DNA of 64,000 nt from Candidatus Kaiserbacteria bacterium (GCA_016217925.1 JACRFK010000003.1:8364-72363), one strand, 5' to 3'. Positions 2,236-62,327 are shown, numbered from the stretch's first letter. Numbers and translations: made by a program. The notes: a model not told the origin generated them from the sequence alone.

Positions 2236-3203
2236 AAAAGATAGTGGTTTCAGCGCCGGGGAAACTCATGCTCTTGGGAGAGCATGCGGTCGTATATAAC
2301 CACTCGTGTATCGTCACGGCAGTTGGGCAGCGAATGTTCGTAACGCTTGAGCTACTGCCCGAACCAACGTTCGAACTCGAAGCGTCTGATGTAGAAGTGG
2401 CAGGATATAAAAAACGATTCGCAAGTTTGGGAGAAGGCGATATCCCAAAGGGAGCAAGGTTTGTTGAAATGGCAGTGAAGAACTTTACAAAAAGGTATCC
2501 GTTGAAAGGTGGAGTCCGAATCACTACAAAATCAGAGTTTTCTTCGTTGTTTGGTTTTGGTTCGTCTTCCGCCTCAACAGTCTGCGTTATCAAAGGGTTG
2601 GCAGAACTAACAAATACAAACCTAAGTAGCAAAGAAATATTTGAGCTAGCCTATAAAACGGTCCTTGATGTACAGGGAAAGGGTTCCGGTTTCGACGTCG
2701 CGGCGGCAATATACGGTAGGACACTTTATTTTGTCACCGGCGGAAAAGTAATCGAGCCTATTGCGTTGGACGAGCTCCCCCTTGTCGTCGGCTACACCGG
2801 GGTGAAGGCCGATACAGTGAGCTTGATTAATGCGGTCGCCGAAAAGGCTTTCCGACATCCAAAACGTATTGAAGTCATCTATACTCAGATCGGAGACATG
2901 GTCGACGAAGCTCACGCTGCATTGAAAGAAAGAAATTGGCCACTTGTGAGCGAGCTCATGGATTTCGATCAGGGCATGTTAGAGAGTCTTGGTGTCAGCA
3001 GCCAAAGGCTTGCCGGAATGATACACGCCGCGCGTGATGCAGGAGCGTGGGGCGCAAAACTTTCGGGAGCCGGCGGAGGCGACTGTATGATAGCCCTCGT
3101 CTCTCGTGAAAAAAAACAAGCCGTTTCTGAAGCGATTACGAAAGTAGGCGGACAAGTCATCGACGTGGCAACAAACGTGGAAGGCGTTAGAATCGAACTA
3201 TGA
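2232..3203 (+). CDS. mvk: Mevalonate kinase
   Basis: APGKLMLLGEHAVVY and GFGSSSASTV motifs; ATGA overlap with both the upstream and downstream genes. Confidence 0.85.
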   Translation: MKKIVVSAPGKLMLLGEHAVVYNHSCIVTAVGQRMFVTLELLPEPTFELEASDVEVAGYKKRFASLGEGDIPKGARFVEMAVKNFTKRYPLKGGVRITTKSEFSSLFGFGSSSASTVCVIKGLAELTNTNLSSKEIFELAYKTVLDVQGKGSGFDVAAAIYGRTLYFVTGGKVIEPIALDELPLVVGYTGVKADTVSLINAVAEKAFRHPKRIEVIYTQIGDMVDEAHAALKERNWPLVSELMDFDQGMLESLGVSSQRLAGMIHAARDAGAWGAKLSGAGGGDCMIALVSREKKQAVSEAITKVGGQVIDVATNVEGVRIEL

Positions 3204-9410: not shown

Positions 9411-11843
9411 GTGAAAAGAGCCCACCGCCAAAAAAAGACGGACGCTCACAAAAAGCTGGTTATTCGAATGGAAGAAGCGGGAATGGACGATATCGCCCTG
9501 GTCGGCGGCAAAAATGCCAGCCTCGGTGAGATGCTCTCCGCGCTCACGAAAAAAGGCATTCGCGTGCCTTCGGGTTTTATCATTACGACCGATGCCTATC
9601 GTGAATTCATCCGCGGGGCGGGACTCGAAGACCTTATCCGCTTCAATCTCGCGCACTTGAAACGGCACGACATTCATGCGCTCGAACATGCAAGTCAGGT
9701 CATCAGGGAAGCAATAGAGGGTGCGCCTCTGCCCAAAGAACTCGAGCATCAGGTCGCCGAGGCGTATGTCTCGATGGAGAAACAGTACGGCAAGCACATC
9801 GACGTCGCCATCCGCTCCTCGGCGACTGCCGAAGATTTGCCGGGCGCATCATTCGCCGGCCAACAAGACACATACCTCGGCGTGCGCGGGCGCGATCATG
9901 TGTTCAAGGCGGTGCGTTCATGTTTCGGGTCGCTCTTTACCGCACGCGCGATTTCATACCGTCACGACAAAGGCTTCGACCACATGGATGTCGCGCTTTC
10001 GGTCGCTATCCAGCGGATGGTCCGTAGCGACTTGGGCGCTTCGGGCGTCGCTTTCACGCTCGACACCGAAACGGGCTTCCGTGACGTCGTCCTCATCACT
10101 GGTACGTGGGGTCTCGGCGAACTCCTCGTGCAGGGACAGGTTGTGCCGGATGAATTTCTCGTCGCAAAGAAAATGCTGGGTCACGCGCCGCTCCCCATCA
10201 TCGGCAAACGCCGCGGCAAAAAAGATATCAAAATGGTATACGCCAAGCGCGGACACGCAGGTCCGCTCCAGGTCGTGAAGAATAAGAAGGAAGACCGGCG
10301 CCGCTTCGTCTTGAACGACAAACAAATTATCGAACTCGCAAAAGCGGCCGTACTCATCGAAAAGCACTACACCAAGATACGCGGCACTCCTTCACCCATG
10401 GACGTGGAGTGGGCGCTCGACGGCCGCACCAATGAGCTCTTCATCCTGCAAGCTCGCCCCGAGACCGTGCAGGTGAGCCGCGACACCGAGAAAATTAAGG
10501 AGTACATCCGCCGCGAAGAGGGCACCCCTATCGTGCGCGGGCTCTCGGTGGGCAACAAGATCGTGACCGGTACGGTGCGCATCATCAACGACGTCCGCGA
10601 CATGCAGGCGCTTTTGCCGGGCGAAGTCTTGGTCACCGAGATGACTGACCCGGACTGGGAACCTATCATGAAAAAAGCCGCCGCCATCGTCACCGAAAAG
10701 GGCGGCCGTACCTCGCACGCCGCGATCGTCTCCCGCGAGCTCGGGCTCACCGCCATCGTGGGGGCCGAAAAAGCGACACAGATACTGCACACCGGTCAGC
10801 TCGTCACGATTGATACGACCTCGTCGGAAGGACTCGTCTTTGACGGCGTCTTGGGTTTCAGCGTGCGCGAGACGGAACTCGGTGCGCTTCCCAAAACCAA
10901 GACCAAGATAGCGATGAACATCGCCACCCCCGACACCGCATTTGAAAAATCATTCTTACCCAACGACGGTGTGGGGCTTGCCCGCGAGGAATTCATTATC
11001 GCCGGCTCGGTGGGCGTGCACCCGCTTGCGCTTATCCACTACGACGAGCTCCCGGAGAATATGCAGCTCCAAGTCCGTAAGAAAACGCGCGGCTGGGACG
11101 ACAGGCTCGAATACTACGTGGACAATCTCGCCTTCGGCATCGCGAAGATCGCGACGGCTTTCTATCCGAAAAAAGTCATCGTCCGCTTTTCCGATTTCAA
11201 GAGCAACGAATACCGCTCGCTCCTGGGCGGTGAGCGCTTTGAGCCGGTCGAAGAAAATCCGATGCTCGGCTGGCGCGGCGCTTCCCGCTACTACGACCCC
11301 AAATTCAAGCAGGCATTTCTCCTCGAGTGCCGCGCGATGCGCAAAGTCCGCGAGACGATGGGGCTGCGCAACGTCATCCCGATGGTGCCTTTCTGCCGCA
11401 CGCTTGAAGAGGGGAGGAATGTGCTCGAAGTGATGGCCGAAGGCGGCCTCAAGCGGGGGAAGAACGGACTCAAGGTCATCGTCATGTGCGAGATTCCCTC
11501 CAACGCGATTTTGGCCGAAGAGTTTCTCAAGATTTTCGACGGCATGTCTATCGGTTCCAACGACCTCACTCAGCTCACGCTCGGCCTCGACCGTGATTCC
11601 GGTATCGTGAATCGTGTAGCCGATGAGAACGACCCGGCGGTGAAAAAGCTCATTGCGGATGTCATCAAAGTCTGTCTGAAGAGTAAAAAGTATGTCGGCA
11701 TTTGCGGCCAGGGTCCGTCCGATCACCCTTCGTTCGCGAAATTCCTCGTGGAGCAGGGGATCGAGAGCATGTCGCTCAATCCGGATTCCATCATCAAAAC
11801 AAAAATAGCCGTCGCCAAGGTGGAGAAGGGGATGAGAAAATGA
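9411..11843 (+). CDS. ppsA: Phosphoenolpyruvate synthase (pyruvate, water dikinase)
   Basis: 810 aa; ...LVGGKNASLGEM... N-terminus, ...GGRTSHAAIVSRELG... phosphohistidine motif and C-terminal PEP-utilising domain. The start is more likely the internal ATG at 9468 (MEEAGMDD...). Confidence 0.9.
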   Translation: MKRAHRQKKTDAHKKLVIRMEEAGMDDIALVGGKNASLGEMLSALTKKGIRVPSGFIITTDAYREFIRGAGLEDLIRFNLAHLKRHDIHALEHASQVIREAIEGAPLPKELEHQVAEAYVSMEKQYGKHIDVAIRSSATAEDLPGASFAGQQDTYLGVRGRDHVFKAVRSCFGSLFTARAISYRHDKGFDHMDVALSVAIQRMVRSDLGASGVAFTLDTETGFRDVVLITGTWGLGELLVQGQVVPDEFLVAKKMLGHAPLPIIGKRRGKKDIKMVYAKRGHAGPLQVVKNKKEDRRRFVLNDKQIIELAKAAVLIEKHYTKIRGTPSPMDVEWALDGRTNELFILQARPETVQVSRDTEKIKEYIRREEGTPIVRGLSVGNKIVTGTVRIINDVRDMQALLPGEVLVTEMTDPDWEPIMKKAAAIVTEKGGRTSHAAIVSRELGLTAIVGAEKATQILHTGQLVTIDTTSSEGLVFDGVLGFSVRETELGALPKTKTKIAMNIATPDTAFEKSFLPNDGVGLAREEFIIAGSVGVHPLALIHYDELPENMQLQVRKKTRGWDDRLEYYVDNLAFGIAKIATAFYPKKVIVRFSDFKSNEYRSLLGGERFEPVEENPMLGWRGASRYYDPKFKQAFLLECRAMRKVRETMGLRNVIPMVPFCRTLEEGRNVLEVMAEGGLKRGKNGLKVIVMCEIPSNAILAEEFLKIFDGMSIGSNDLTQLTLGLDRDSGIVNRVADENDPAVKKLIADVIKVCLKSKKYVGICGQGPSDHPSFAKFLVEQGIESMSLNPDSIIKTKIAVAKVEKGMRK

Positions 11844-29288: not shown

Positions 29289-30344
29289 ATGGATATCGAA
29301 CTCTTGAAGAAGACCGCGAAGCAAATGGTCGCTCCGGGGAAGGGCATCCTTGCTGCCGACGAAAGTTCGGGTACGTGCCAAAAACGGTTTGAATCGGTCG
29401 GTGTGCCCTGCACCGAAGAGAATCGCCGTGCGTACCGCGAAACTCTGCTCACCGCAGACGGGCTTGAACAGTACATAAGCGGCGTCATTCTCTACGATGA
29501 GACCATCAGACAGGAGACCAATGAGGGAGAGGCGTTCGCGGCGGTACTCGAAAAGAAGGGCATCCTTCCGGGCATCAAAGTGGACACCGGGGCAAAAGAA
29601 CTGGCTCTCCATCCTGGAGAAAAGGTGACCGAAGGCCTCGACGGGCTCCGCGAGCGGCTTGCCGAGTACAAAACTTTGGGCGCACGTTTCGCCAAATGGC
29701 GTGCCGTCATCACGATAGGCAAAGATTTGCCATCCCCCGCCTGTATCCATGCAAATGCGCACGCAATGGCCCGCTATGCCGCGCTATGCCAAGAGGCCGG
29801 CATCGTGCCCATGGTGGAACCGGAAATACTCATAGACGGCGACCACAACATCGAGCGCTGCTATGAAATATCGACCGCGACTCTGAAGAAGACGTTTGAA
29901 GAACTCGCCGGGCAGGATGTCGCCGTCGAAGGGGTCATCCTCAAAACGAGCATGGTCATCGCGGGGAAACAAGCGAAGTCCGCCGAAGGCGGATCCTCCT
30001 CCGGAGGACAGTCGGGCATGGAGGAAGTCGCGAAGGAAACAATCCGCGCTTTCAAGGAAACGCTGCCCGCGGGGCTCACTGGCGTCGCGTTCCTTTCGGG
30101 CGGACAGACCGACGAGCAGGCGACGGAACACCTGAATGCGATGAATGCGACCGGCAAGCTTCCGTGGCCGCTCTCGTTCTCGTACGGGCGTGCTCTGCAA
30201 AACCCCGTCCTCAAGATTTGGGCCGAAAGTCCGAATGCGAACATCGCGAAGGCACAGGCGGCGCTACTTTTCCGCTCAAAGATGAATTCGCTCGCGACGC
30301 AAGGCAGATACTCAAGCGAGATGGAAAAAGAGCGACCGTACTGA
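29289..30344 (+). CDS. fba: Fructose-bisphosphate aldolase, class I
   Basis: ...GKGILAADESSGT..., ...LEGVILKTSMV..., ...FLSGGQ... class-I Schiff-base aldolase blocks. Contains the in-frame palindromic mini-element (see repeat feature). Confidence 0.85.
   Translation: MDIELLKKTAKQMVAPGKGILAADESSGTCQKRFESVGVPCTEENRRAYRETLLTADGLEQYISGVILYDETIRQETNEGEAFAAVLEKKGILPGIKVDTGAKELALHPGEKVTEGLDGLRERLAEYKTLGARFAKWRAVITIGKDLPSPACIHANAHAMARYAALCQEAGIVPMVEPEILIDGDHNIERCYEISTATLKKTFEELAGQDVAVEGVILKTSMVIAGKQAKSAEGGSSSGGQSGMEEVAKETIRAFKETLPAGLTGVAFLSGGQTDEQATEHLNAMNATGKLPWPLSFSYGRALQNPVLKIWAESPNANIAKAQAALLFRSKMNSLATQGRYSSEMEKERPY
29978..30008. repeat. Second copy of the 31-bp mini-element, in-frame in fba (30/31 nt identical to the atpA copy)
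   Basis: GTCCGCCGAAGGCGGATCCTCCTCCGGAGGA; encodes SAEGGSSSGGQ. Confidence 0.55.
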
Positions 30345-31024: not shown

Positions 31025-31095
31025 TGGACTTACCGGGAATCGAACCCGGGCCTCGTCAATGCGAATGACGCGTAATACCACTTTACTATAAGCCC
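31025..31095 (-). tRNA. tRNA-Ala (anticodon CGC)
   Basis: Cloverleaf with acceptor GGGCTTA/TAAGTCC including the G3:U70 Ala identity pair, anticodon loop TTCGCAT, T-loop TTCGATT. Confidence 0.75.
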
Positions 31096-31144
31096 GTATA
31101 CAACGGACCCGTGCGGAGAAATATAACAGATACAACGTATTCAC

Positions 31145-31615
31145 TCAATTCAACAGCCAGACGCCCATGGTCAGATATCCGGCAAAAATGATCCAGAGCA
31201 AATATGCCGCCATCAAATATACGGCGCGGCGGTCAATGTCGGCTGCACTTGCAGTGAGCGCGAGAACGATCGCTCCCAGGAACAAGATGTCTACGAAGGC
31301 AATAAAGGGAGAATGGAACCCAAAGAAAAACATCGTGTAACACGTACTGAAAAGTAGCTGTATGAAGAAGAAGCGCACCCATCCGGCAGTGTGGGCTGCG
31401 GGGAATTTTCTCGTCCACACAATGGCGAGTGCTGCGGCCGTCATACCGTAAAGGATCAGCCAGACAATGGTAAATGTAGTGTCTGATGGTGTGAAAGAGG
31501 GCTTATTGAGATTGGCGTACCAACTCGAGTCTCCGACATCTACGAAGAGAAATCCAATAAGGCCTGAGCCGTAAGAGGCGAGGAGGGCGATCAACACCCG
31601 AACGAGTCGGCCCAT
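31145..31615 (-). CDS. tspO: TspO/MBR (tryptophan-rich sensory protein) family
   Basis: 156 aa, 5 TM; ...SWYANLNKPSFTP...WLILYGMTAAALAIVW... Trp-rich pattern. Confidence 0.75.
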   Translation of the reverse strand: MGRLVRVLIALLASYGSGLIGFLFVDVGDSSWYANLNKPSFTPSDTTFTIVWLILYGMTAAALAIVWTRKFPAAHTAGWVRFFFIQLLFSTCYTMFFFGFHSPFIAFVDILFLGAIVLALTASAADIDRRAVYLMAAYLLWIIFAGYLTMGVWLLN

Positions 31616-31684
31616 ACAGCCTCAGCATATGCCCCTCATATTTCTGCGCTATTATGGTTATCCACACCTAAAGAGTGACACTGA

Positions 31685-31755
31685 TCGGGCCGCCGAGAAT
31701 CGAACTCGGGCTACAAGACCCCCAGCCTTGCGTACTGCCACTATACGACGGCCCG
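31685..31755 (-). tRNA. tRNA-Pro (anticodon GGG)
   Basis: Acceptor CGGGCCG/CGGCCCG, anticodon loop CTGGGGG, T-arm CCGAG-TTCGATT-CTCGG. Confidence 0.75.
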
Positions 31756-31774
31756 CGCTCGATAAAGTCTCTTG

Positions 31775-31845
31775 TCGGGCCGCCGGGAATCGAACCCGGT
31801 CTTTACGAACCCGAATCGCACGTACTACCGGTATACTACGGCCCG
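31775..31845 (-). tRNA. tRNA-Pro (anticodon CGG)
   Basis: Same acceptor stem as its neighbour; anticodon loop TTCGGGT; T-arm CCGGG-TTCGATT-CCCGG. Confidence 0.75.
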
Positions 31846-32010
31846 GCAAAAGACTTCATCGATACTCACATGCAAGGTGGTCACAAATATTTCCTCGCCG
31901 TCGCTCGGAAATTTCGCGACCCCGGCTCGCGGTCGCGCGTACTCGCGCGACATCGCTCCGCCCTGCACAGCGCGGGCAAATGTGCCGTAGGGCACATTTT
32001 CCCGTCGCTG

Positions 32011-32084
32011 TGCACCTTTCAGGATTCGAACCTGAGACCTTTCGAATGTGAATCGAACGCTCTAACCAACTGAGCTAAAGGTGC
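32011..32084 (-). tRNA. tRNA-Val (anticodon CAC)
   Basis: GCACCTT acceptor, D-arm GCTC-AGTTGGTTA-GAGC, anticodon loop TTCACAT, T-loop TTCGAAT. Confidence 0.8.
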
Positions 32085-32289
32085 GTCCCGCATCCGTTAA
32101 CACTGAGCCCCGACGCTTACGGTCGGGGCCCCGACTGAAACGTCGGGGCTAAAGGTGCGTTGTGGGATTATAACGGCTAGCGAGTCGAACCGCGAGTGCT
32201 TGCACTCATGGTCGGCGAGCGAAGACGTTATATGGTACTCCATATAACGGGTGGCGGGTAAACGGGGAAGCTGGTATACTTTATTCTCA

Positions 32290-33246
32290 ATGGAGTACAA
32301 GATCTTCAGCCTGGGGGCAAACGATGAGCTCGCGAAGAAAATAGCTGCGCGCCTCGGGATGCCTCTCGGAGAGATCAAATGCCGCTCGTTCAGCGATGGC
32401 GAACAGCAAGTGCAATTTTTGGAGAACTTGCGCGGGAAAGACGTGTTCCTCATCCAGCCGACGAATCCTCCTGCCGAGAACTGGGTACGTCTTCTTCTTG
32501 CGATTGACGCTGCGCGCAACGCGTCGGCACGCGAGGTTACCGCTGTCGTTCCGTACTTCGGTTACTCGCGCCAAGACCGCAAGTCAAAACCCCGTGAACC
32601 GATCTCGGCAAGCGTCTTTGCAAAGACGCTTGAAGGTGTCGGTGCCACCCGACTGCTCACGATGGATCTTCACAATGACGCCATCGGTGGTTTTTTCCGG
32701 CGCACCATCGTGGACAATCTCTACGCTCGACGGGTCTTCATTTCTCATTTTCGCGATGTATTCAAAGACGCGCTTGCTGCTGACGATCTCGTCGTTGTCT
32801 CACCCGACGCGGGCGGTGTCGTCCGCGCTCAATCGTACGCCAAGCGGCTCATGAAGTCAGCCGACCTTGCCATCATCCACAAAGAGCGCGAGATACCCAA
32901 TCAGATAGCGCGCATGAAGCTTATCGGAGACGTGAAGGGGAAAATCGCGCTCATCACAGACGACATGGCGGATACCTGCGGTACCTTGGCACGCGCATCC
33001 GCGCTTCTCATGGAAAATGGCGCAAAAGAAGTGTACGCGATGGCAACACACGGAGTCCTCTCGGGTGAGGCAATGAAGACCCTCGAGGCCTCTCCCATCA
33101 AGAAGCTCTTCATCACCGATACGATAAACGGCAATCGCGAGCTAGGGACAAAGATAGAGGTCGTGTCGGTAGGCGACACCTTCGGCGACGCCATAGAGCG
33201 CATTGAATCGGGGGAGTCGCTCAGCGCTCTATTTGAAACCGAATAG
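32290..33246 (+). CDS. prs: Ribose-phosphate pyrophosphokinase
   Basis: ...MEYKIFSLGANDELAKKIA...RSFSDGE...VVPYFGYSRQDRK...TDDMADTCGT... PRPP synthetase motifs. Confidence 0.9.
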   Translation: MEYKIFSLGANDELAKKIAARLGMPLGEIKCRSFSDGEQQVQFLENLRGKDVFLIQPTNPPAENWVRLLLAIDAARNASAREVTAVVPYFGYSRQDRKSKPREPISASVFAKTLEGVGATRLLTMDLHNDAIGGFFRRTIVDNLYARRVFISHFRDVFKDALAADDLVVVSPDAGGVVRAQSYAKRLMKSADLAIIHKEREIPNQIARMKLIGDVKGKIALITDDMADTCGTLARASALLMENGAKEVYAMATHGVLSGEAMKTLEASPIKKLFITDTINGNRELGTKIEVVSVGDTFGDAIERIESGESLSALFETE

Positions 33247-33339
33247 GTGAATGCTAAGGTAGAACGCATCGCTCCCATATTTCATATGGAAGCGGCGTTC
33301 AGGGAAAGTGAATGCTTGCATTCACTTTGCCCCTCACTT

Positions 33340-33411
33340 GCTCCCATAGTTTAATGGATAGAACGTAAGCTTCCGGAGCTTATGATCGAGGTTCGATTCC
33401 TCGTGGGAGCA
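33340..33411 (+). tRNA. tRNA-Arg (anticodon CCG)
   Basis: Acceptor GCTCCCA/TGGGAGC, anticodon loop TTCCGGA, T-arm CGAGG-TTCGATT-CCTCG. Confidence 0.8.
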
Positions 33412-33461
33412 CAAACGATTGCTCGCGTTGACGTTTTTGTTTTGTTAAGATGCTCCGCGAC

Positions 33462-33534
33462 GGGCCATTAGCTCACTTGGTAGAGCGCTTCCATGGCATG
33501 GAAGAGGTAACCGGTTCGATTCCGGTATGGTCCA
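33462..33534 (+). tRNA. tRNA-Ala (anticodon GGC)
   Basis: Acceptor GGGCCAT/ATGGTCC with G3:U70, D-arm GCTC-ACTTGGTA-GAGC, anticodon loop ATGGCAT. Confidence 0.8.
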
Positions 33535-41215: not shown

Positions 41216-41454
41216 TTTCCGAGCACAAAAAATGAACTCATCTGCTTCGTTACGGGGCCCCGTGCAATTCTCCGCCGTACTGCGTGTACGTCTCCGAATT
41301 TCACTTCCCCGTGCCTCGCATCTGAATTCATCTTTCGGCTCTTTTCCAAATTGGCAGCATCAGATTGCTGGAGAATTTCAATAACGTCATGCGCACACGA
41401 CGCTCTCAATTCTCCGGCAATCCGATGTTATCAAGGCCCCCCGTCGCTAAAGCT

Positions 41455-42381
41455 ATGGAGGGTAAACATCGAAGTGTTCTTTTACATGAAGCAATTGAAC
41501 AGTTGGCGATAGAACCAGACGATACGGTACTGGACGCGACACTCGGCGGTGCGGGTCACGCACTCGCGATTGCGCAAAAGCTCGACAAGGGGGGAACCCT
41601 TATCGGGATAGATGCAGATCACGATGCGGTAGTCCGCGCACAAGAAGCGCTCGCAGGTGTTGCGCCGAAAGTGCATCTCGTCGAGGGAAACTTCCGCAAT
41701 CTGAAAGCGGAGCTCGACAAACTCGGCGTCGCGTACATAACGAAAGCCCTCTTCGATTTAGGGTGGAGCTCATTTCAGCTCGACTCCGGAAGAGGATTCT
41801 CGTTGAAAGCAGATGAACCGCTTCTCATGACCTACTCCTCCTCCGAAGGAGGATCGGCCTCCGGCGGAAAGGACCCCGGCGCGCTTACGGCGGCGGCAAT
41901 CGTCAATGAGTGGTCCGAGGAATCGATCGCGGACGTCATCTTTGGGTGGGGCGAAGAGCGGTACTCGCGGCGTATTGCGAAGTGCATCGTGGAAAGACGC
42001 GAAAAGAAACCTTTCACGACCGCACGCGAGCTTGCAGAAGCCATCTACGAGGCGGTGCCTCCGAGATACCGCTTCGGCAAAATCCATCCCGCTACGCGCA
42101 CGTTCCAGGCACTGCGTATCGCGGTCAACGATGAGCTGGGGAGCCTATCGCAGGGACTCGCCGACGGATGGCAAGCGCTGTCGTGCGGCGGACGTATCGC
42201 GGTAATCACGTTCCACTCCATCGAAGACAGGCTCGTCAAACAAACGTTCAAGCAATGGGAGGAGGCGGGGGAGGGCAAACGCGTAACAAAAAAGCCCATC
42301 GTTGCCGGTGAGACAGAAACCTCCTCAAATCCAAGGTCCCGCAGCGCTAAATTGCGCGTCATCCAGAAAGTCCCGACGTAA
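41455..42381 (+). CDS. rsmH: 16S rRNA (cytosine1402-N4)-methyltransferase RsmH
   Basis: ...HRSVLLHEAIEQL...LDATLGGAGHA..., ...GGRIAVITFHSIEDRLVK... Contains an inverted copy of the in-frame mini-element. Confidence 0.85.
   Translation: MEGKHRSVLLHEAIEQLAIEPDDTVLDATLGGAGHALAIAQKLDKGGTLIGIDADHDAVVRAQEALAGVAPKVHLVEGNFRNLKAELDKLGVAYITKALFDLGWSSFQLDSGRGFSLKADEPLLMTYSSSEGGSASGGKDPGALTAAAIVNEWSEESIADVIFGWGEERYSRRIAKCIVERREKKPFTTARELAEAIYEAVPPRYRFGKIHPATRTFQALRIAVNDELGSLSQGLADGWQALSCGGRIAVITFHSIEDRLVKQTFKQWEEAGEGKRVTKKPIVAGETETSSNPRSRSAKLRVIQKVPT
41836..41869. repeat. Third copy of the mini-element, reverse-complement orientation, in-frame in rsmH
   Basis: TCCTCCTCCGAAGGAGGATCGGCCTCCGGCGGA matches the reverse complement of the atpA copy with 2 mismatches in the ~30-nt core; encodes SSSEGGSASGG. 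Confidence 0.5.
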
Positions 42382-44570: not shown

Positions 44571-44602
44571 TCGTTATCGTAAGTATTATCCACGATAGAA
44601 CA

Positions 44603-44628
44603 CTCTCATATTCTTAAGAATGTGAGAG
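44603..44628. promoter_or_regulatory. 26-bp palindrome CTCTCAtATTCTTAAGAATgTGAGAG upstream of the ArsR-family gene; probable operator
   Basis: Seen directly; ends 10 nt before the ATG. A second copy lies at 44914-44939. Confidence 0.5.
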
Positions 44629-44637
44629 TATGATGAA

Positions 44638-44928
44638 ATGGTTGAAAAGAAGCTAAAAGGGCCAAAGAAGCTTGAACGGCATTTCAAAGGCGTTTCAAAT
44701 CACCGCCGTATTCAGATACTTATCCTGGTAGCAAAGCATCCGGAAATATCACTCTTTGACATCGCGGATTCGGTGAAAGGCAACGTGAAGACCATCTCGG
44801 AACACGTTCGGCGTCTTACGCTCGCGGGTTTGGTAGAGAAGCGCTACTCGGGTAGGGAAGTCCGACACGTCCTCACTCCCTACGGACGGACCTTCCATTC
44901 GTTTATAGAAAGATTCTCACGTTCTTAA
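44638..44928 (+). CDS. ArsR/SmtB-family HTH transcriptional regulator
   Basis: ...HFKGVSNHRRIQILILVAKHPEISLFDIADSVKGNVKTISEHVRRLTLAGLV... winged-HTH pattern. Confidence 0.75.
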   Translation: MVEKKLKGPKKLERHFKGVSNHRRIQILILVAKHPEISLFDIADSVKGNVKTISEHVRRLTLAGLVEKRYSGREVRHVLTPYGRTFHSFIERFSRS

Positions 44929-44939
44929 GAATGTGAGAG
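44914..44939. promoter_or_regulatory. Second copy of the ATTCTTAAGAAT-centred palindrome; it overlaps the last codons and the TAA stop of the ArsR gene
   Basis: tCTCACgTTCTTAAGAATgTGAGAG; 22 nt identical to the upstream copy, with GTATG following both copies. Confidence 0.45.
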
Positions 44940-45034
44940 TATGGGGAATCTCGGTATCGGTCAAGTGGAAAAGAGTAGGATTTTAGGTATTATTTCAAGG
45001 ACGGGCCTATCGATTTTGATAGGCACCTGTTGAC

Positions 45035-45106
45035 GGCCCTATCGTCTATCGGTTAGGACACAAGCTTCTCAAGCTTGGAAGCCGGGTTCGATTCCCGGTA
45101 GGGTCA
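45035..45106 (+). tRNA. tRNA-Glu (anticodon CTC)
   Basis: Acceptor GGCCCTA/TAGGGTC, anticodon arm CAAGC-TTCTCAA-GCTTG, T-arm CCGGG-TTCGATT-CCCGG. Confidence 0.75.
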
Positions 45107-46515: not shown

Positions 46516-47854
<1,339 letters not shown>

Positions 47855-47856
47855 AG

Positions 47857-47972
47857 GCCCTATAACAACCCTATCTGCTGCGTTGCGGAGCCTCTGCGAT
47901 TTCCTCACCGTACAAATGTACGTCTCGGAAATCACTTTCTCCGCGCCTTGCATCTCGGGCCGTTCTAGGGCT
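47857..47972 (+). ncRNA. Candidate structured RNA / palindromic intergenic element, copy A (downstream of ahcY)
   Basis: ~75% identical to copy B at 62177-62291, same orientation. Shared blocks CTGCGTTG(T)TGCGGAGCCTCTG, TCACCGTACAA(A/C)ATGTACG, CTTTCTCC(G/A)CGCCT(T/C)GCATCT(C/G)GGCC; internal stems change in a compensatory way. Confidence 0.4.
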
Positions 47973-47982
47973 TCATATAGGA

Positions 47983-48876
47983 ATGACTACCAAAATGCGT
48001 TCGTGTTTCCATATCGAAATAGTCACGCCGAAGAGGGTAGTACTCGACGGACTTTGGTTCGGTCTCAGGAAACCGAAGCGGCTGATTATTTTTGTGCACG
48101 GCCTCACCGGCTCACTCTTCAGCATGCGCCGTATAATGGATGTGATGGTGGGCGGTGGCACTGCGGTTCTTGTATTCAACAACCGCGGCTTCGAGCACGT
48201 CAGTGAATACAAGCAAAAGAAAGGAAAGAATTCGAAGTGGAAGGTCGGCGGGGCGGGGCATGAGATTTTTACGGAATGCGCCGACGACATCGAAGGTGCG
48301 GTGCGCTTCGCCCGCAGGGCGGGAGTAAAGAATGTATATTTGGCCGGACACTCGACCGGCTGCCAGAAGGCGGTCTACTGGGCGAGCAAGCACGCGGGGG
48401 GTCGGGCCGTAAAAGGCATCATTTGCCTGGGCCCCCTCAGTGACTATGCGATCGCTCTGGAACAGGATAGCGGCGGCAAACTGAAGCGCGCGGTCGCGTA
48501 TGCCCGTGCACTGGTAGCGAAAGGCAAGCCGCACGAGCTCATGCCGGTAGCGCTTGGACCGTGGTTTACGTGCGACGCGCAGCGGTTCTTGAGCTTGTGT
48601 ACGCCGGATAGCCCGGAAGAAATATTTTCGTACGCGCAACCAAAGAAGATGCCGCGCGCTTTGCGCGCGCTCCGAATACCTGTGCTTACGTTGCTTGCCG
48701 GAAATGAGGAGCACACCAAGCGACCGGCGGAGGATATCGCGAAGTGGCTCGAGGAGAATATCCGCACTCCGCACCGGGTCGTTATCGTGCTTGATGTCGG
48801 GCACGGATTCAAGGGCGGAGAGAGAGTCGTCCTCCGGACAATACGACAATTTTTAGCCTCTACGACGATACAATGA
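47983..48876 (+). CDS. Alpha/beta-hydrolase-fold protein
   Basis: ...LIIFVHGLTGSLF..., nucleophile elbow GHSTGC (GxSxG); 297 aa. Confidence 0.7.
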   Translation: MTTKMRSCFHIEIVTPKRVVLDGLWFGLRKPKRLIIFVHGLTGSLFSMRRIMDVMVGGGTAVLVFNNRGFEHVSEYKQKKGKNSKWKVGGAGHEIFTECADDIEGAVRFARRAGVKNVYLAGHSTGCQKAVYWASKHAGGRAVKGIICLGPLSDYAIALEQDSGGKLKRAVAYARALVAKGKPHELMPVALGPWFTCDAQRFLSLCTPDSPEEIFSYAQPKKMPRALRALRIPVLTLLAGNEEHTKRPAEDIAKWLEENIRTPHRVVIVLDVGHGFKGGERVVLRTIRQFLASTTIQ

Positions 48877-48930: not shown

Positions 48931-49979
<1,049 letters not shown>

Positions 49980-50107
49980 TTTTGACGCATTGCTTCGTTG
50001 GACATCGGTCACCCGCACTCGCCGTACATTTCAGTACGACTCGTTTGGTTCCCTCGTCCGCCTCGCACTGCATTCAAAATTAAGTAAATTGGTTGTAGTA
50101 TCAAATC

Positions 50108-50976: not shown

Positions 50977-52575
50977 ATGGATTCAGCAACCGTCGAGAAG
51001 ATAATCAAAGAGATAGGCAACATCGCACCTGCACACGAAGGTGAGCACGTAGGCCGGGTGGTCGCGGTCGGCGACGGCGTTGTCGCCATCGACGGACTTT
51101 CCAAGGCGGTGATGAGCGAAGTGCTCCTCTTCGAAGAGGGCAAAGGCAAGAAGCTGAAGGATACATTGTCCGCCGGAGGCGGATCCTCCTCCGGAGGAGA
51201 AACACAGGGGGAACTCTACGGCCTCATTTTGAACCTCGAAGAAGACGGCGTGCGCGCGACCATTCTTGGCGACACTGCCCGTGTGAGCGAAGGCATGACC
51301 GTCAAATCGACCGGAAGGATCCTCTCGGTGCCGGCAAGCGAAGAGCTGCTCGGCCGGGTAGTGAATGCCCTCGGCGAGCCGATAGACGGTAAAGGACCAT
51401 TCAAGAAAACGAAACTCATGCCGATAGAACGACAAGCGGCGGGTGTTATCGACCGCAAGTCGGTGTCGGTCCCACTTGCGACCGGTACCAAAGCAATTGA
51501 CGCGATGATTCCCATCGGTCGCGGCCAACGCGAGCTCATCATCGGCGACCGCGGCACGGGGAAGACCACTGTCGCCATTGACGCCATCATCAACCAAAAG
51601 TACGAACCGGAAGCGACCCGCCCCATCTGCATCTATGTCGCCATCGGCCAGAAGGAGAGTAAGACCGCACGCATCGCGCAGCAATTGCGCGAACAGGGTG
51701 CGATGGACTACACCATCATCGTCGACGCTCCCGCGTCCGCTCCCGCCGCGCTCCAGTACCTGTCGCCGTTTAGCGGCGTTGCCATCGGTGAATACTTCAT
51801 GGACAAAGGCCGCGACGTCCTCATTGTCTATGATGACCTCTCCAAGCAGGCTACCGCTTACCGTCAGCTCTCGCTCCTTCTGCGCCGTCCGCCGGGTCGC
51901 GAAGCGTATCCGGGCGACGTATTTTACTTACACTCGCGATTACTTGAACGCGCATGCCGCCTGAACGAGGAAAAGGGCGGCGGTTCTATCACAGCGCTCC
52001 CTATCATCGAGACGCAGGAAGGCGACGTCTCCGGATACATCCCGACCAACGTCATCTCCATCACCGACGGCCAGATGTTCCTCGTGGCTGACCTCTTCAA
52101 CAAAGGCATCAAGCCGGCCATCGACGTCGGCATCTCGGTCTCACGCGTCGGTTCCGCCGCGCAGACCAAGGCGATGAAAGGCGTCGCCGGCGGCATCAAG
52201 CTGGAGCTCGCGCAATTCCGCGAGCTTGAAGCATTCATGCAATTCGCTTCAGACCTCGACAAAGCCACTGCCGACCGCATCGAATCGGGCCGCCGCATGG
52301 TGGAGGTCTTGAAACAGAAAAACGGCGCTCCGATACCCCTCGAGCGTCAGGTCGCCGCGTTGTACGCCGCAGGACACGCGTTTTTTCTCGACGTACCGGT
52401 GAATAAAGTTACCGAAGTCGAGCGTCAGCTCATGGAATTTCTCGATGGTCAGTACTCGAAAACTCTTGCAGCTATCAAGAAGACGGGCCAACTTTCCGAG
52501 GACGCGAAGAAAGAGCTGAACAATGCGATGGAGGAGTTCAGGCTTGCGCATCCGGAGTTGTTTGCGACGAAATAA
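50977..52575 (+). CDS. atpA: ATP synthase F1 subunit alpha
   Basis: ...GDRGTGKT... P-loop, ...VYVAIGQK..., ...DDLSKQA... Carries a ~24-aa Gly/Ser-rich insertion in the N-terminal barrel, encoded by the palindromic mini-element. Confidence 0.9.
51168..51198. repeat. 31-bp double-palindrome mini-element (GTCCGCCGGAGGC-GGATCC-TCCTCCGGAGGA) in-frame in atpA
   Basis: Contains the hairpin CCGCC-GGA-GGCGG and the perfect 12-bp palindrome TCCTCCGGAGGA; encodes [11 protein letters not shown]. Confidence 0.55.
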
Positions 52576-61177: not shown

Positions 61178-62185
61178 TTGACATCCGCAGTCTGGCTTGT
61201 ACCATTTCACCATATGGATAAACCAAAGGTAACGCCCAAGGACTTCGTCCTCTGGGTAGGTGCGATGGCCTCGCTCTATGCGGGTGTCGTGGCTTTTATT
61301 ACGCTCGTGTTCGAGTACATTAATAAAGCATTTCCGAATCCAGTTACATCTTCTTACTACTACGGCGATCCGTATTCGAGCAACATCAGCTACGAGACAG
61401 CGGCGCTCATTGTGCTCACGCCGGTCTTCCTCATCCTCATGCGCTTCATCCGGCGCGATATCGCAGCCGACCCATCGCGCAATGATATCTGGGTCCGGCG
61501 CTGGGCGCTCTTCCTCACACTTTTCCTCGCGGGCGCAACCGTTGTCGTGGACCTCATCGTGCTACTCAACACGTACCTACAGGGTGAAGACCTCACCGTA
61601 GGTTTTTTGCTCAAGGTGCTGACCGTCCTTCTCGTCGCAGGCCTCGGCTTCATGCACTTCATCGCCGACCTGTGGGGGTATTGGGAACGTGAACAAGCGC
61701 GCGCACGGATGGTCAATTGGGGCGTCGGCCTGTTGGTCGTGGTCACCATTATCGCGGGATTCTTCATCGTTGGCACTCCGCAGCAGATACGCGCGCAAAA
61801 ACAAGATGCGATACGTGTGCAGGACCTGCAGAACGTCCAGTGGCAGATAGTCAATTACTGGCAACAGAAGGAAAAATTGCCTGCGACGCTTGCCGAACTC
61901 AACGACCCTATCGCCAATAACATCATCCCGGTCGACCCGCAGACCGATGAGGCGTACGAATACGCATCAACGGGCGCACGCTCGTTCAAGCTCTGTGCGA
62001 CGTTCGCGGGCGAGGGCGGTACCAACACTCTGCAAGGACGTTCTGTGCCAATACCCGCTGAGCCCACCTTGGTAACGGGCAAAGATGTTCAGGACAATTG
62101 GCAGCATGCTGCCGGAAAGGTCTGTTTCGACCGCACTATAGACCCACAACGATACCCCCCGTACTCCAAGCAAAAGTCCCTATAA
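61178..62185 (+). CDS. DUF5671-like membrane protein with C-terminal pseudopilin-like globular domain, hypothetical
   Basis: 4 TM, then ...DAIRVQDLQNVQWQIVNYWQQKEKLPATLAELNDP...PVDPQTDEAYEY... Alternative start at 61214 (MDKPK...). Confidence 0.55.
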   Translation: MTSAVWLVPFHHMDKPKVTPKDFVLWVGAMASLYAGVVAFITLVFEYINKAFPNPVTSSYYYGDPYSSNISYETAALIVLTPVFLILMRFIRRDIAADPSRNDIWVRRWALFLTLFLAGATVVVDLIVLLNTYLQGEDLTVGFLLKVLTVLLVAGLGFMHFIADLWGYWEREQARARMVNWGVGLLVVVTIIAGFFIVGTPQQIRAQKQDAIRVQDLQNVQWQIVNYWQQKEKLPATLAELNDPIANNIIPVDPQTDEAYEYASTGARSFKLCATFAGEGGTNTLQGRSVPIPAEPTLVTGKDVQDNWQHAAGKVCFDRTIDPQRYPPYSKQKSL

Positions 62186-62291
62186 AAGCCCAACTGCGTT
62201 GTTGCGGAGCCTCTGAGTCTCACTCACCGTACAACATGTACGCCTCGTGAGCCTCTTTCTCCACGCCTCGCATCTGGGCCCTTATAGTGGC
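62177..62291 (+). ncRNA. Candidate structured RNA / palindromic intergenic element, copy B (upstream of leuS)
   Basis: See copy A. The outer closing stem CCCTATAA...TTATAG(T)GG is shared; copy B has stem GTCTCAC/GTGAGCC where copy A has GATTTCC/GGAAATC. Confidence 0.4.
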
Positions 62292-62327
62292 TTTTTGATT
62301 CAATGTTCTGTATGTTAGGCTACTCCA

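What the first reader, a model, noticed from the sequence alone, without database searches (positions are those of the whole stretch)
47857..47972. Conserved ~115-nt intergenic element with compensatory stem changes (copy A), a candidate novel structured RNA
Two copies (47857-47972 after ahcY; 62177-62291 before leuS) lie in the same orientation and are ~75% identical. They share an outer closing stem (CCCTATAA ... TTATAGGG-like) that starts within or abutting the upstream stop codon. They share a GCGGAG ... CTCCGC stem and a CGTAC-loop-GTACG hairpin. An internal helix is GATTTCC/GGAAATC in copy A but GTCTCAC/GTGAG(C)C in copy B: a different sequence pairing at the same positions. Such covariation is the signature of selection on RNA secondary structure rather than on primary sequence. 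Both copies sit between convergently packed + strand genes with no room for a protein. No known riboswitch or T-box consensus is present.
Basis: seen in the sequence. Interest (0 to 1): 0.7.

Follow-up and report, generated by a model that had tools for sequence, protein, structure and literature searches.

The report
Hairpin repeat element behind stop codons
The 115-nt sequence is one of four copies in this window of an apparently undescribed hairpin-forming repeat found directly behind the stop codons of housekeeping genes in many uncultivated bacteria, and it looks like a spreading gene-end hairpin of the REP/ERIC/TRIT kind rather than a stand-alone RNA gene.

Summary
The window holds four copies, not two: 47856-47976, 62176-62296, 41223-41344 and 49972-50090, all on the + strand. 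Each folds into one long imperfect hairpin. A pattern scan and covariance models recovered about 150 copies from more than 100 uncultivated genomes, mostly Patescibacteria/CPR plus at least one true LPS-bearing diderm. Rfam gives no match even at E<=10.

Base pairing is strongly supported: 27 of 30 pairs show compensatory changes in 90 copies, and 23 of 38 in 13 orthologous copies. The apex (UCACCGUAC-loop-GUACGGCUC) and the motifs UGCnnnGUU / GCCUYGCA are nearly invariant.

It also behaves as a dispersed, gained-and-lost repeat. Copies A and C are absent from every close relative examined, while the atpE|atpF copy persists in many. The upstream stop codon lies 10-35 nt before the core in 67 of 67 measurable cases. 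Orientation is sense 55:17. Related genomes carry ordinary terminators at the same junctions.

No target-site duplications, conserved termini, nearby transposase or dedicated promoter were found. The opposite strand consistently folds better, which is unexplained.

Best reading: a new family of co-transcribed palindromic gene-end repeats acting as a 3'-end hairpin. Its means of spread and its trans-acting partner are unknown.

The parts
47856..47976 (+). Copy A, the finding: a full-length hairpin element between ahcY and a hydrolase gene
   Evidence: CM R2 scores 110.3 bits, E 5e-32. It is absent from all 80 AhcY relatives.
47852..47854 (+). ahcY stop codon (TGA), directly abutting and partly pairing with the basal stem of copy A
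   Evidence: ORF 46583-47854.
47856..47871 (+). Copy A basal stem, 5' arm (GGCCCUA.AAC..CCC). It pairs with 47957-47972.
   Evidence: Minimum-free-energy structure. The basal stem is similar in copy B.
47876..47884 (+). Copy A conserved 5' motif UGC-nnn-GUU. UGC pairs with GCA at 47950-47952.
   Evidence: Family consensus. Pairs 29-31/139-141 and 35-36/134-135 are nearly invariant.
47885..47890 (+). Copy A helix GCGGAG, pairing with CUCCGC at 47939-47944
   Evidence: These columns covary across the family (helices 2-3).
47898..47904 (+). Copy A variable helix GAUUUCC, pairing with GGAAAUC at 47927-47933. This is the helix that is switched in copy B.
   Evidence: In the family, 9 of 9 pairs of this helix show changes on both sides (helix 4).
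47905..47926 (+). Copy A conserved apex: UCAC-CGUAC-loop-GUACG-UCUC
   Evidence: The apex helix is paired in 99.6% of cells in 90 copies.
47945..47952 (+). Copy A conserved 3' motif GCCUUGCA
   Evidence: Family consensus GCCUYGCA.
47957..47972 (+). Copy A basal stem, 3' arm (GGG..GUU.UAGGGCU)
47977..47994 (+). Extra non-hairpin sequence lying between copy A and the conserved hydrolase start ATG at 47995. In relatives the ahcY stop abuts that start (TGAGTATG).
   Evidence: Junction comparison.
62176..62296 (+). Copy B, between a 335-aa ORF and leuS. The ORF's last codons and its TAA (62183-62185) lie inside the 5' arm.
   Evidence: CM R2 scores 109.3 bits.
41223..41344 (+). Copy C, between mraZ and rsmH. 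The hairpin spans 41221-41341.
   Evidence: CM R2 scores 107.6 bits. Relatives have a 25-nt spacer here with no element.
49972..50090 (+). Copy D, between atpE and atpF. The hairpin spans 49969-50090. The last atpE codons and the TAA (49977-49979) form the 5' side of the basal stem.
   Evidence: CM R2 scores 63.3 bits. Orthologous copies occur in 15-18 relatives and show compensatory changes.

Best explanation
Copy A belongs to a family of roughly 120-130-nt interspersed palindromic elements.

Architecture. Each copy is one long imperfect hairpin. The apex (UCACCGUAC-loop-GUACGGCUC) and two internal-loop motifs (UGCnnnGUU on the 5' arm, GCCUYGCA on the 3' arm) are nearly invariant. The helices between them and the basal stem differ from copy to copy but stay paired.

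Behaviour (shown). The element has no coding capacity. It is gained and lost between close relatives, so it spreads as a non-autonomous repeat. It sits directly behind the stop codon of a gene, usually in the sense orientation. The basal stem starts at the stop codon or includes it.

Expression (follows from position). It is transcribed as the 3' end or the intercistronic part of that gene's mRNA.

Function (inferred, not shown). It occupies the place that ordinary intrinsic terminator hairpins hold in related genomes. It therefore most likely acts as a gene-end RNA hairpin. In the roughly half of copies that carry an A-tract and a U-tract around the inner stem, it would be a terminator or attenuator. 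In intra-operon copies such as atpE|atpF it would be a 3'-exonuclease barrier or a processing site. A ribosome stopping at the stop codon would have to melt the basal stem.

Trans-acting factor (inferred). The invariant apex and loops, together with a built-in strand asymmetry, imply an unidentified factor that recognises the folded single strand. That factor could serve the element's spread (the better-folding strand, as ssDNA or RNA) or its RNA function.
For: Family and structure:
- Four copies lie in the window.
135 CM hits and 146 nhmmer hits followed.
- In 90 copies, 87.5% of cells are paired against 64% in shuffles, and 27 of 30 pairs change on both sides. The covariation score is 0.53 against 0.14 shuffled and at most 0.11 when partners are slid.
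- The 13 orthologous atpE|atpF copies were found by synteny, independently of the search pattern. They are 93% paired, with 23 of 38 pairs compensatory, including pairs between the last atpE codons and the 3' arm.

Mobility:
- Copy A is absent after ahcY in all relatives, which range from 65 to 98% AhcY identity. In several of them the ahcY stop abuts the next start.
- Copy C is absent from all 10 mraZ|rsmH junctions.
- Filled and empty states occur at other junctions, for example L022 against L089 at 92% amino-acid identity, and tuf in L104 against four empty genomes.
- Cores 90% identical sit at non-orthologous loci.
- A and B share their basal stems.

Position:
- The stop codon lies 10-35 nt before the core in 67 of 67 cases, and at or inside the hairpin base in 75 of 87.
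- In convergent spacers the 5' side is tight in 16 of 17 cases, while the 3' side ranges from -23 to 133 nt.
- Sense against antisense is 55:17. Only 7 copies lie in divergent spacers.

Terminator equivalence:
- An A-tract sits at -13..-10 and a T-tract at +10..+13 from the core.
- Relatives without the element have canonical A-tract/stem/T-tract terminators, or a short stop-codon hairpin, at the same junctions.

Published analogues:
- TRIT of Mycobacterium has 147 palindromic copies that start about -8 from the stop codon (PMC3152330).
- ERIC is co-transcribed and has orientation-dependent, ribosome-dependent effects on mRNA stability (PMC2229807).
Against: - No expression data exist. Termination, stabilisation and processing are inferred from position only.
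- Only 54 of 116 copies have a run of at least 4 T after the inner stem. The presence of that run does not track operon ends.
- Copies A and D have no U-tract. Copies lie inside essential operons: atp, and after the genes for ribosomal proteins S12, L10, S10, L6 and L14. An efficient terminator would be harmful there.
- The strand that is usually in the mRNA is the weaker-folding one. Its mismatches are pyrimidine-pyrimidine and A.C rather than G.U. That is not the signature of selection on that RNA.
- The mechanism of spread is unknown. There is no enrichment of target-site duplications, no conserved termini, and no recurrent transposase near copies.
- Conservation of the same core from CPR to a diderm is unusual for a selfish repeat.
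- The tight, polar anchoring to stop codons is not explained by a sequence target.
- My gene calls are crude (greedy longest ORFs).
- The genome loci were ascertained with a pattern that requires the apex and the 3' motif.
Confidence: 0.55

Rival explanations
1. It is a dedicated cis-acting structured RNA: a protein- or RNase-recognised 3'-UTR or intercistronic signal. In this reading it is kept by selection at each site and duplicated only rarely, and its apparent mobility is secondary.
For: - Covariation is very strong and the unpaired nucleotides are invariant across phyla.
- The atpE|atpF copy has persisted long-term, with compensatory evolution that tracks synonymous codon changes.
- It lies behind highly expressed genes, namely tuf, groEL, rpoC, secY, atpE and the genes for ribosomal proteins S12 and L10.
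- Placement relative to the stop codon is tight and polar.
- The authors of the TRIT study drew the same inference, that a factor binds the motif.
Against: - Two of the four window copies are lineage-specific gains at junctions that work without the element in every relative.
- The sense strand carries A.C and Y.Y mismatches rather than G.U.
- Inverted copies are as well preserved as sense copies.
- No candidate binding protein was identified.
Confidence: 0.15
2. It is chiefly a DNA-level element whose functional form is the hairpin of the better-folding (opposite) strand as single-stranded DNA. It would be a substrate of an HUH/Y1-type transposase or a site-specific recombinase, as in IS200/IS605 ends, REP-RAYT or integron attC bottom strands. 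Any RNA effect would be a by-product.
For: - The opposite strand folds better in 125 of 132 copies and in 17 of 18 orthologous copies. The same holds in inverted copies, so the asymmetry belongs to the element.
- On the opposite strand the mismatches become G.T and tandem G.A, at CA-GA-TGC/GCA-GA-TG and at GAG|CCGTAC..GTACGG|TGA.
- No target-site duplications were found. To my knowledge, ssDNA transposition leaves none.
- G.U-type intermediates are rare relative to full Watson-Crick switches.
- Like attC sites, it sits just behind stop codons with the better-folding strand antisense. That comparison rests on my own knowledge of integrons.
Against: - No Y1/HUH or integrase gene recurs near copies.
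- The flanking genes are housekeeping genes, not cassettes.
- There are no R''/R' core sites by inspection.
- The arms are not themselves palindromes.
- There is no defined left-flank target sequence.
- For co-oriented genes the better-folding strand would be the leading-strand template, which is rarely single-stranded.
- Orientation against GC skew was inconclusive.
Confidence: 0.15
3. It is a classical MITE: a deletion derivative of an insertion sequence, moved by a DDE transposase that recognises its terminal inverted repeats.
For: - It shows presence/absence polymorphism and is multi-copy, short, non-coding and fully palindromic.
- Three recent insertions have 5-bp direct repeats at their ends: TTTCC at copy C, GCTCT in L151 and GCTAG in L022.
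Against: - Across 78 copies the longest flanking direct repeat is no longer than in controls (4.0 against 4.0 nt).
- The termini are the least conserved part and the centre the most conserved. This is the reverse of a MITE.
- No parent IS or transposase was seen.
- There are no hits in plasmid, phage or E. coli collections.
Confidence: 0.07
4. It is a small RNA gene on the minus strand, convergent with the upstream gene and sharing a bidirectional terminator with it.
For: - The minus strand has the G.U pairs, the purine-rich loops and the tandem G.A motifs typical of structured RNAs.
- The spacing is looser on the side where its promoter would lie.
Against: - No sigma-70-like promoter lies next to any window copy on the minus strand.
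- In 126 copies there is no positional peak of -10-like hexamers upstream of the hairpin.
- Many copies leave less than 45 nt before the next gene.
- 17 copies sit in the other orientation inside operons.
Confidence: 0.05

Closest known systems
TRIT ('Tuberculosis Rho-independent terminator') motif of Mycobacterium (Gardner et al. 2011, RNIE paper, PMC3152330)
   Same: - It is a sequence- and structure-conserved palindromic hairpin present in many copies (147 in M. tuberculosis).
- It is tightly associated with gene ends.
- It has a very narrow distribution relative to the stop codon, starting inside the coding sequence at about -8.
- It is read as a bidirectional terminator-type element that may need an extra binding factor.
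   Different: - TRIT is reported as restricted to Mycobacterium.
- The present family is found in Patescibacteria and other phyla. It is about 120-130 nt long, with several internal loops and a conserved apex.
- About half of its copies carry A/U tracts.
- Its gain and loss and its strand asymmetry are documented here.
- I did not compare the sequence with TRIT.
ERIC/IRU (127-bp enterobacterial repetitive intergenic consensus)
   Same: - Similar size.
- An imperfect palindrome folding into a long stem-loop.
- It lies in transcribed intergenic regions and is co-transcribed with the flanking genes.
- Its effect on mRNA stability depends on orientation and on ribosomes (PMC2229807).
- No transposase of its own is known to me (my own knowledge).
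   Different: - There is no sequence similarity. blastn of copy A finds nothing in 5,426 E. coli genomes.
- ERIC has short TIRs and TA target duplications. Here there is no TSD signal, and the centre rather than the ends is conserved.
- The anchoring to stop codons and the cross-phylum range are not features I know for ERIC.
REP / BIME and REPIN-RAYT systems
   Same: - Extragenic palindromic repeats found mostly behind genes and in convergent spacers.
- They are hairpin-forming and vertically persistent, yet replicating within genomes (abstracts).
- Proposed roles are in termination and mRNA stabilisation.
   Different: - A REPIN is two inverted REP palindromes. Here each arm alone has no structure (z about 0).
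- No RAYT gene was seen nearby.
- To my knowledge REP sequences differ between genera, whereas this core is shared across phyla.
Integron attC sites
   Same: - Imperfect hairpins of about 60-140 nt lying immediately behind the stop codon of the preceding ORF in one orientation.
- The strand antisense to the ORF is the better-structured, active one (my own knowledge).
   Different: - attC sites are conserved at their ends (R''/R' boxes) and variable in the centre. This family is the reverse.
- The flanking genes here are core housekeeping genes in conserved operons, not cassettes.
- No integrase context was seen.
Canonical bidirectional intrinsic terminators
   Same: - An A-tract, stem and T-tract surround the inner hairpin in about half of the copies.
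- The element occupies the same junctions where related genomes have ordinary terminators.
   Different: - An 80-nt conserved, internally structured insert replaces the loop.
- Many copies lack a U-tract or lie inside operons.
- The sequence is conserved across unrelated genes and across phyla.

Membership tests
Any Rfam 15 family | Match to a curated covariance model | tested here: not met
   No hit on the element at gathering thresholds. No hit at E<=10 on 47800-48030.
Classical MITE | Terminal inverted repeats conserved among copies (transposase binding sites) | tested here: not met
   The whole element is an inverted repeat. However, the termini are the most variable part and the centre the most conserved.
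Classical MITE | Target-site duplications flanking each copy | tested here: not met
   The longest direct repeat at the hairpin ends averages 4.0 nt, against 4.0 nt in controls (78 copies). Three young insertions have 5-bp repeats, which may be chance.
Classical MITE | Presence/absence polymorphism between related genomes | tested here: met
   Copies A and C are absent in all relatives. Filled and empty states occur at many junctions.
Classical MITE | A parent insertion sequence with the same ends | tested here: inconclusive
   No transposase-like cluster was found among 878 ORFs of 120 loci. Whole genomes could not be scanned.
REPIN-RAYT | Two inverted REP units, each itself a short palindrome | tested here: not met
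   Arms folded alone give a mean z of -0.15 and +0.06, and 7% fall below z -2.
REPIN-RAYT | A RAYT (Y1 transposase) gene in the same genome, usually flanked by the repeats | not testable with these tools
   Only 2-21-kb loci are available. None was seen in them.
ERIC/IRU | Homology to the 127-bp ERIC consensus | tested here: not met
   blastn with 11-base words finds no match for copy A in the E. coli complete-genome collection.
ERIC-like (functional class) | An imperfect palindrome of about 120-130 nt lying in transcribed intergenic regions, in either orientation | tested here: met
   Copies lie inside the atp, mraZ-rsmH and ribosomal operons. Inverted copies exist.
Intrinsic (Rho-independent) terminator | A stable hairpin immediately followed by a U-tract | tested here: inconclusive
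   54 of 116 copies have at least 4 T at +5..+20 from the core. In the window, B and C have T-runs and A and D do not.
Intrinsic (Rho-independent) terminator | Lies at the ends of transcription units | tested here: inconclusive
   Always behind a stop codon, but often inside conserved operons. The T-tract is not linked to context. No transcript data are available.
TRIT-like gene-end motif | A conserved palindromic motif with a narrow distribution around the stop codon | tested here: met
   The stop codon lies 10-35 nt before the core in 67 of 67 cases, and inside or at the hairpin base in 75 of 87. The definition comes from PMC3152330. Sequence homology to TRIT was not tested.
Integron attC | R''/R' core sites (RYYYAAC ... 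GTTRRRY) at the hairpin base, and an integron/cassette context | tested here: not met
   By inspection the basal stems carry no such boxes. The neighbours are ahcY, atpE/F, mraZ/rsmH and leuS.
Independent sRNA gene | Own promoter at a fixed distance, and own terminator | tested here: not met
   No promoter-like site lies next to the window copies. There is no positional peak of -10-like hexamers on either side in 126 copies.

The most novel reading that the evidence does not exclude
The element could be a previously unrecognised gene-end punctuation module shared across Patescibacteria and several other phyla. In this reading it is a centre-conserved hairpin read by a conserved but unidentified factor. 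It would be anchored to stop codons by a mechanism coupled to translation or termination. It would propagate through the folded opposite strand (ssDNA or RNA) without target-site duplications. That would make it a new type of mobile structured element rather than another REP or MITE.
Probability: 0.22. Interest if true: 0.8.

Novelty: new member of a known kind. Interest (0 to 1): 0.55.

Why it matters
Patescibacteria have small, tightly packed genomes, and as far as I know they are regarded as poor in repeats.

This work finds a 120-nt hairpin that recurs behind the stop codons of core genes such as atpE, the S12 and L10 ribosomal-protein genes, tuf, groEL, rpoC and secY. It keeps the same apex from Saccharibacteria to a diderm with LPS genes. 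It is absent from Rfam and from the literature I could search.

If it is a terminator or stabiliser module, it gives a handle on how these organisms, few of which are cultured, end and process their transcripts. If a conserved factor reads it, that factor is unknown.

It also provides a ready covariance model and a clean natural experiment for testing how such elements insert. Filled and empty junctions are available, along with an orthologous series at atpE|atpF.

The unexplained strand asymmetry and the polar anchoring to stop codons are both concrete, testable puzzles.

Tried and rejected
- Rfam at gathering thresholds and at E<=10 found nothing on the element.
- An exact-product look-up of AhcY found no record.
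- The family pattern has 0 hits in viral contigs. blastn against plasmids and against E. coli genomes found no match.
- Target-site duplication test: no excess over control.
- REP-doublet idea: arms folded alone show no structure.
- Search for a neighbouring partner gene: clustering 878 ORFs from 120 loci gave only housekeeping families.
- Antisense-promoter idea: nothing from the sigma-70 scan of the window, and no positional -10 peak in 126 copies.
- Terminator idea tested by context: the T-tract is no more frequent at convergent ends than inside co-directional pairs.
- Orientation against local GC skew: inconclusive on 8-kb loci.
- Sequence target after the stop codon: none. TGA is only mildly depleted, 8 of 76 against 23% in the background.
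- attC, hairpin and twister ribozymes, K-turn, retron, 6S and T-box were considered from memory. They were dropped for lack of their defining sequences or context.
- Eight literature searches found no description of the element.

Full report
**Observation**

Each copy folds as one long imperfect hairpin, much better than shuffles do. On the + strand A gives -47.0 kcal/mol (z -5.4) and B gives -47.6 (z -6.9).

A repeat search and two covariance models show four copies in the window, all on the + strand between + strand genes:

| Copy | Coordinates | Junction |
|---|---|---|
| A | 47856-47976 | ahcY \| hydrolase |
| B | 62176-62296 | 335-aa ORF \| leuS |
| C | 41223-41344 | mraZ \| rsmH |
| D | 49972-50090 | atpE \| atpF |

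The flanking genes are co-directional, not convergent. Rfam has nothing here, even at E<=10.

**The family**

I scanned one genome per species with a pattern built from the positions shared by the four copies.

- Most loci come from MAGs labelled Patescibacteria: Paceibacteria, Kaiserbacteria, Saccharibacteria, Peregrinibacteria and others.
- About 15% carry other labels: Desulfobacterota/delta, Methylomirabilota/Rokubacteria, Pseudomonadota, Bacteriovoracaceae, Treponema and Firmicutes.
- MAG labels can be wrong. L106, labelled as a flavobacterium, has an L10 protein 84% identical to that of another locus in the set, L076, labelled only 'uncultured bacterium'.
- L084, however, carries msbA-lptF-lptG-waaA-lpxK with two copies between these genes. 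At least one true diderm therefore has the element.

The consensus is catcUGCuucGUUgc-(variable helices)-cUCaCCGUAC-loop-GUACGgCUC-(variable helices)-cgcGCCUyGCAucug.

One caveat applies. The search pattern demanded the apex and the 3' motif, so their invariance in this set is partly by construction. The atpE|atpF copies described below were found through synteny instead. They keep the same motifs, with variants such as GCCUAGC.

**Structure**

- On 90 copies aligned to the model, 87.5% of cells are standard pairs, against 64% after shuffling.
- 27 of 30 pairs have changes on both sides. The covariation score is 0.53, against 0.14 shuffled and at most 0.11 when partners are slid by 1-3 columns.
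- Part of the variation in the basal stem may reflect different subfamilies rather than change in place.
- I therefore aligned 13 orthologous copies from the atpE|atpF junction of related genomes. They are 93% paired, with 23 of 38 pairs compensatory and a score of 0.41 against 0.15. The compensatory pairs include ones between the last atpE codons and the 3' arm. For example, ACU/AGU, ACG/CGU and GUU/AAC track synonymous or conservative codon changes.

The hairpin is therefore maintained over time.

**Gain and loss**

I fetched 80 metagenomic loci that encode AhcY relatives at 65-98% identity, with up to 10-kb flanks.

- **Copy A.** None of the 80 has an element behind ahcY. In several, the ahcY stop abuts the hydrolase start (TGAGTATG). 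The conserved start in the window is the ATG at 47995. Copy A is therefore a lineage-specific insertion that split a coupled gene pair.
- **Copy C.** It is likewise absent from all 10 relatives that hold the mraZ|rsmH junction. They have a 25-nt spacer there.
- **Copy D.** It is present in 15-18 relatives and absent in about 12.
- **Other junctions.** Filled and empty states also occur behind tuf, the S10 ribosomal-protein gene, nusG, pilT, secY and others, and in L022 against L089 at 92% flank identity.
- **Shared cores.** Cores 90% identical sit at non-orthologous sites in different genomes, for example A and L101. A and B share even their basal stems.

**It is not a textbook MITE or REPIN**

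- Direct repeats at the hairpin ends are no longer than in controls. Three young insertions do have 5-bp repeats.
- The ends are the least conserved part.
- Each arm alone does not fold.
- No transposase family recurs in the 120 loci.
- The element is absent from viral contigs, plasmids and E. coli genomes.

**Position**

- With crude gene calls, the stop codon of a same-strand upstream gene lies 10-35 nt before the core in 67 of 67 measurable copies. It lies at or inside the base of the hairpin in 75 of 87.
- In convergent spacers this holds for the 5' side (16 of 17) but not for the 3' side, which ranges from -23 to 133 nt. The anchoring is therefore polar and not a mere result of short spacers.
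- Co-directional contexts are sense 55 and antisense 17. Divergent spacers hold 7 copies. True inverted copies exist, for example in L092 between pilM and the next gene.
- The upstream genes are housekeeping and often highly expressed. They include the genes for ribosomal proteins S12, L10, S15, S10, L6 and L14, together with tuf, efp, nusG, rpoC, rpoD, groEL, secY, atpE, gyrA/B, mreB, murA and pilT. I identified these by inspecting their C-terminal sequences.
- No sequence motif follows the stop codon. TGA is mildly depleted.

**Terminator equivalence**

- An A-tract at -13..-10 and a T-tract at +10..+13 from the core flank the inner stem in about half of the copies. They nearly always occur together.
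- At junctions where some genomes have the element, others have ordinary A-tract/stem/T-tract terminators, for example L049 after secY, L109 and L104.
- At atpE|atpF the empty genomes have a 9-10-bp hairpin with the stop codon in its loop, AAGUUCACC-UAAnn-GGUGAACUU. It covaries to AAAUUUACC/GGUAAAUUU. In the filled genomes the large element sits inside that same stem.
- T-tract presence does not follow operon ends. Copies A and D lack a U-tract, and many copies lie inside essential operons. Efficient termination therefore cannot be the general role.

**The unexplained asymmetry**

- The strand opposite to the model folds better in 125 of 132 copies (mean -66 against -54 kcal/mol). It also folds better in 17 of 18 orthologous atpE|atpF copies, and in inverted copies.
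- On the model strand the non-Watson-Crick cells are pyrimidine-pyrimidine (about 200) and A.C (115). G.U accounts for only 57, plus one conserved U.G.
- On the other strand these become G.U and tandem G.A. Two such tandem G.A motifs are conserved.
- The asymmetry thus belongs to the element and is not produced by the local mRNA.
- I found no dedicated promoter for an opposite-strand RNA.
- Two readings remain. (a) The better-folding strand is the form used for spread (ssDNA or RNA). Copies would then survive mainly in the orientation that puts the weaker hairpin into operon mRNAs. (b) An unknown factor reads pyrimidine-rich loops on the sense RNA.

**Conclusion**

The best-supported account is a new family of co-transcribed palindromic gene-end repeats.

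Closest in behaviour are two published elements:
- TRIT of Mycobacterium: many palindromic copies with a narrow position around the stop codon, and a suspected binding factor (PMC3152330).
- ERIC: 127 bp, co-transcribed, with orientation-dependent and ribosome-dependent effects on mRNA stability (PMC2229807).

Status of each claim:

| Status | Claims |
|---|---|
| Shown | The structure; the family; the gain and loss; the anchoring to stop codons; the strand asymmetry |
| Follows from position | Co-transcription with the upstream gene |
| Inferred | The role as terminator, attenuator or 3'-end stabiliser; the melting of the basal stem by a terminating ribosome; the existence of a trans-acting factor |
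| Unknown | The mechanism of spread |

The window itself most likely comes from a Patescibacteria genome. This is inferred from gene content and from its nearest loci.

Noticed in passing
window 29978-30008, 41838-41868 (inside rsmH), 51168-51198 (inside atpA): A 31-nt double palindrome, GTCCGCCGRAGGCGGATCCTCCTCCGGAGGA, lies in frame in three different protein genes. It encodes SAEGGSSSGG, SSEGGSASGG and [10 protein letters not shown]. In AtpA the encoded [10 protein letters not shown] lies within a stretch that, from memory, has no counterpart in E. coli AtpA. This looks like an in-frame palindromic repeat of the Rickettsia RPE type.
   Followed up: partly
L126 3713-3735; L136 5585-5607; L161 5369-5391; L186 9353-9377: Relatives without the atpE|atpF element have a conserved 9-10-bp hairpin whose loop holds the atpE stop codon. 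It shows compensatory changes (z -3.4 to -4.3). The large element sits inside the same stem in other genomes.
   Followed up: yes
L144 about 3005-3105 and L129 about 9850-9960 (junction upstream of ahcY): A different GC-rich hairpin of about 100 nt (GAAGCGGGCCTCTTCGGGGTC...GACCCCGAAGAGGCCCACTTC) is inserted directly behind the stop codon of the gene before ahcY. L151 carries a copy of the present family at that same junction. Sites next to stop codons may be general landing places for hairpin elements.
   Followed up: no
L084 6141-6266; L011 7052-7183; L115 72-163; and flanks of L005, L084, L118: In the loci not labelled Patescibacteria, some copies are interrupted by foreign inserts at the apex or in the 5' arm. 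Short partial copies (GACTTTTTACGAG-like) lie just beside full copies, as in mosaic REP/BIME clusters.
   Followed up: no
window 44599-44637 and 44910-44948: Two copies of a 39-nt palindrome (CTCTCAyATTCTTAAGAATGTGAGAG core) lie 311 nt apart, just upstream of the tRNA gene at 45035-45106. They could be a repeated operator or promoter element.
   Followed up: no
window 47977-47995: The hydrolase ORF listed from ATG 47983 probably starts at the conserved ATG 47995 (MRSCF...). In relatives this start abuts or overlaps the ahcY stop. Copy A therefore broke an apparent translational coupling.
   Followed up: partly
window 31025-33534: A cluster of seven tRNA genes on both strands within 2.5 kb.
   Followed up: no
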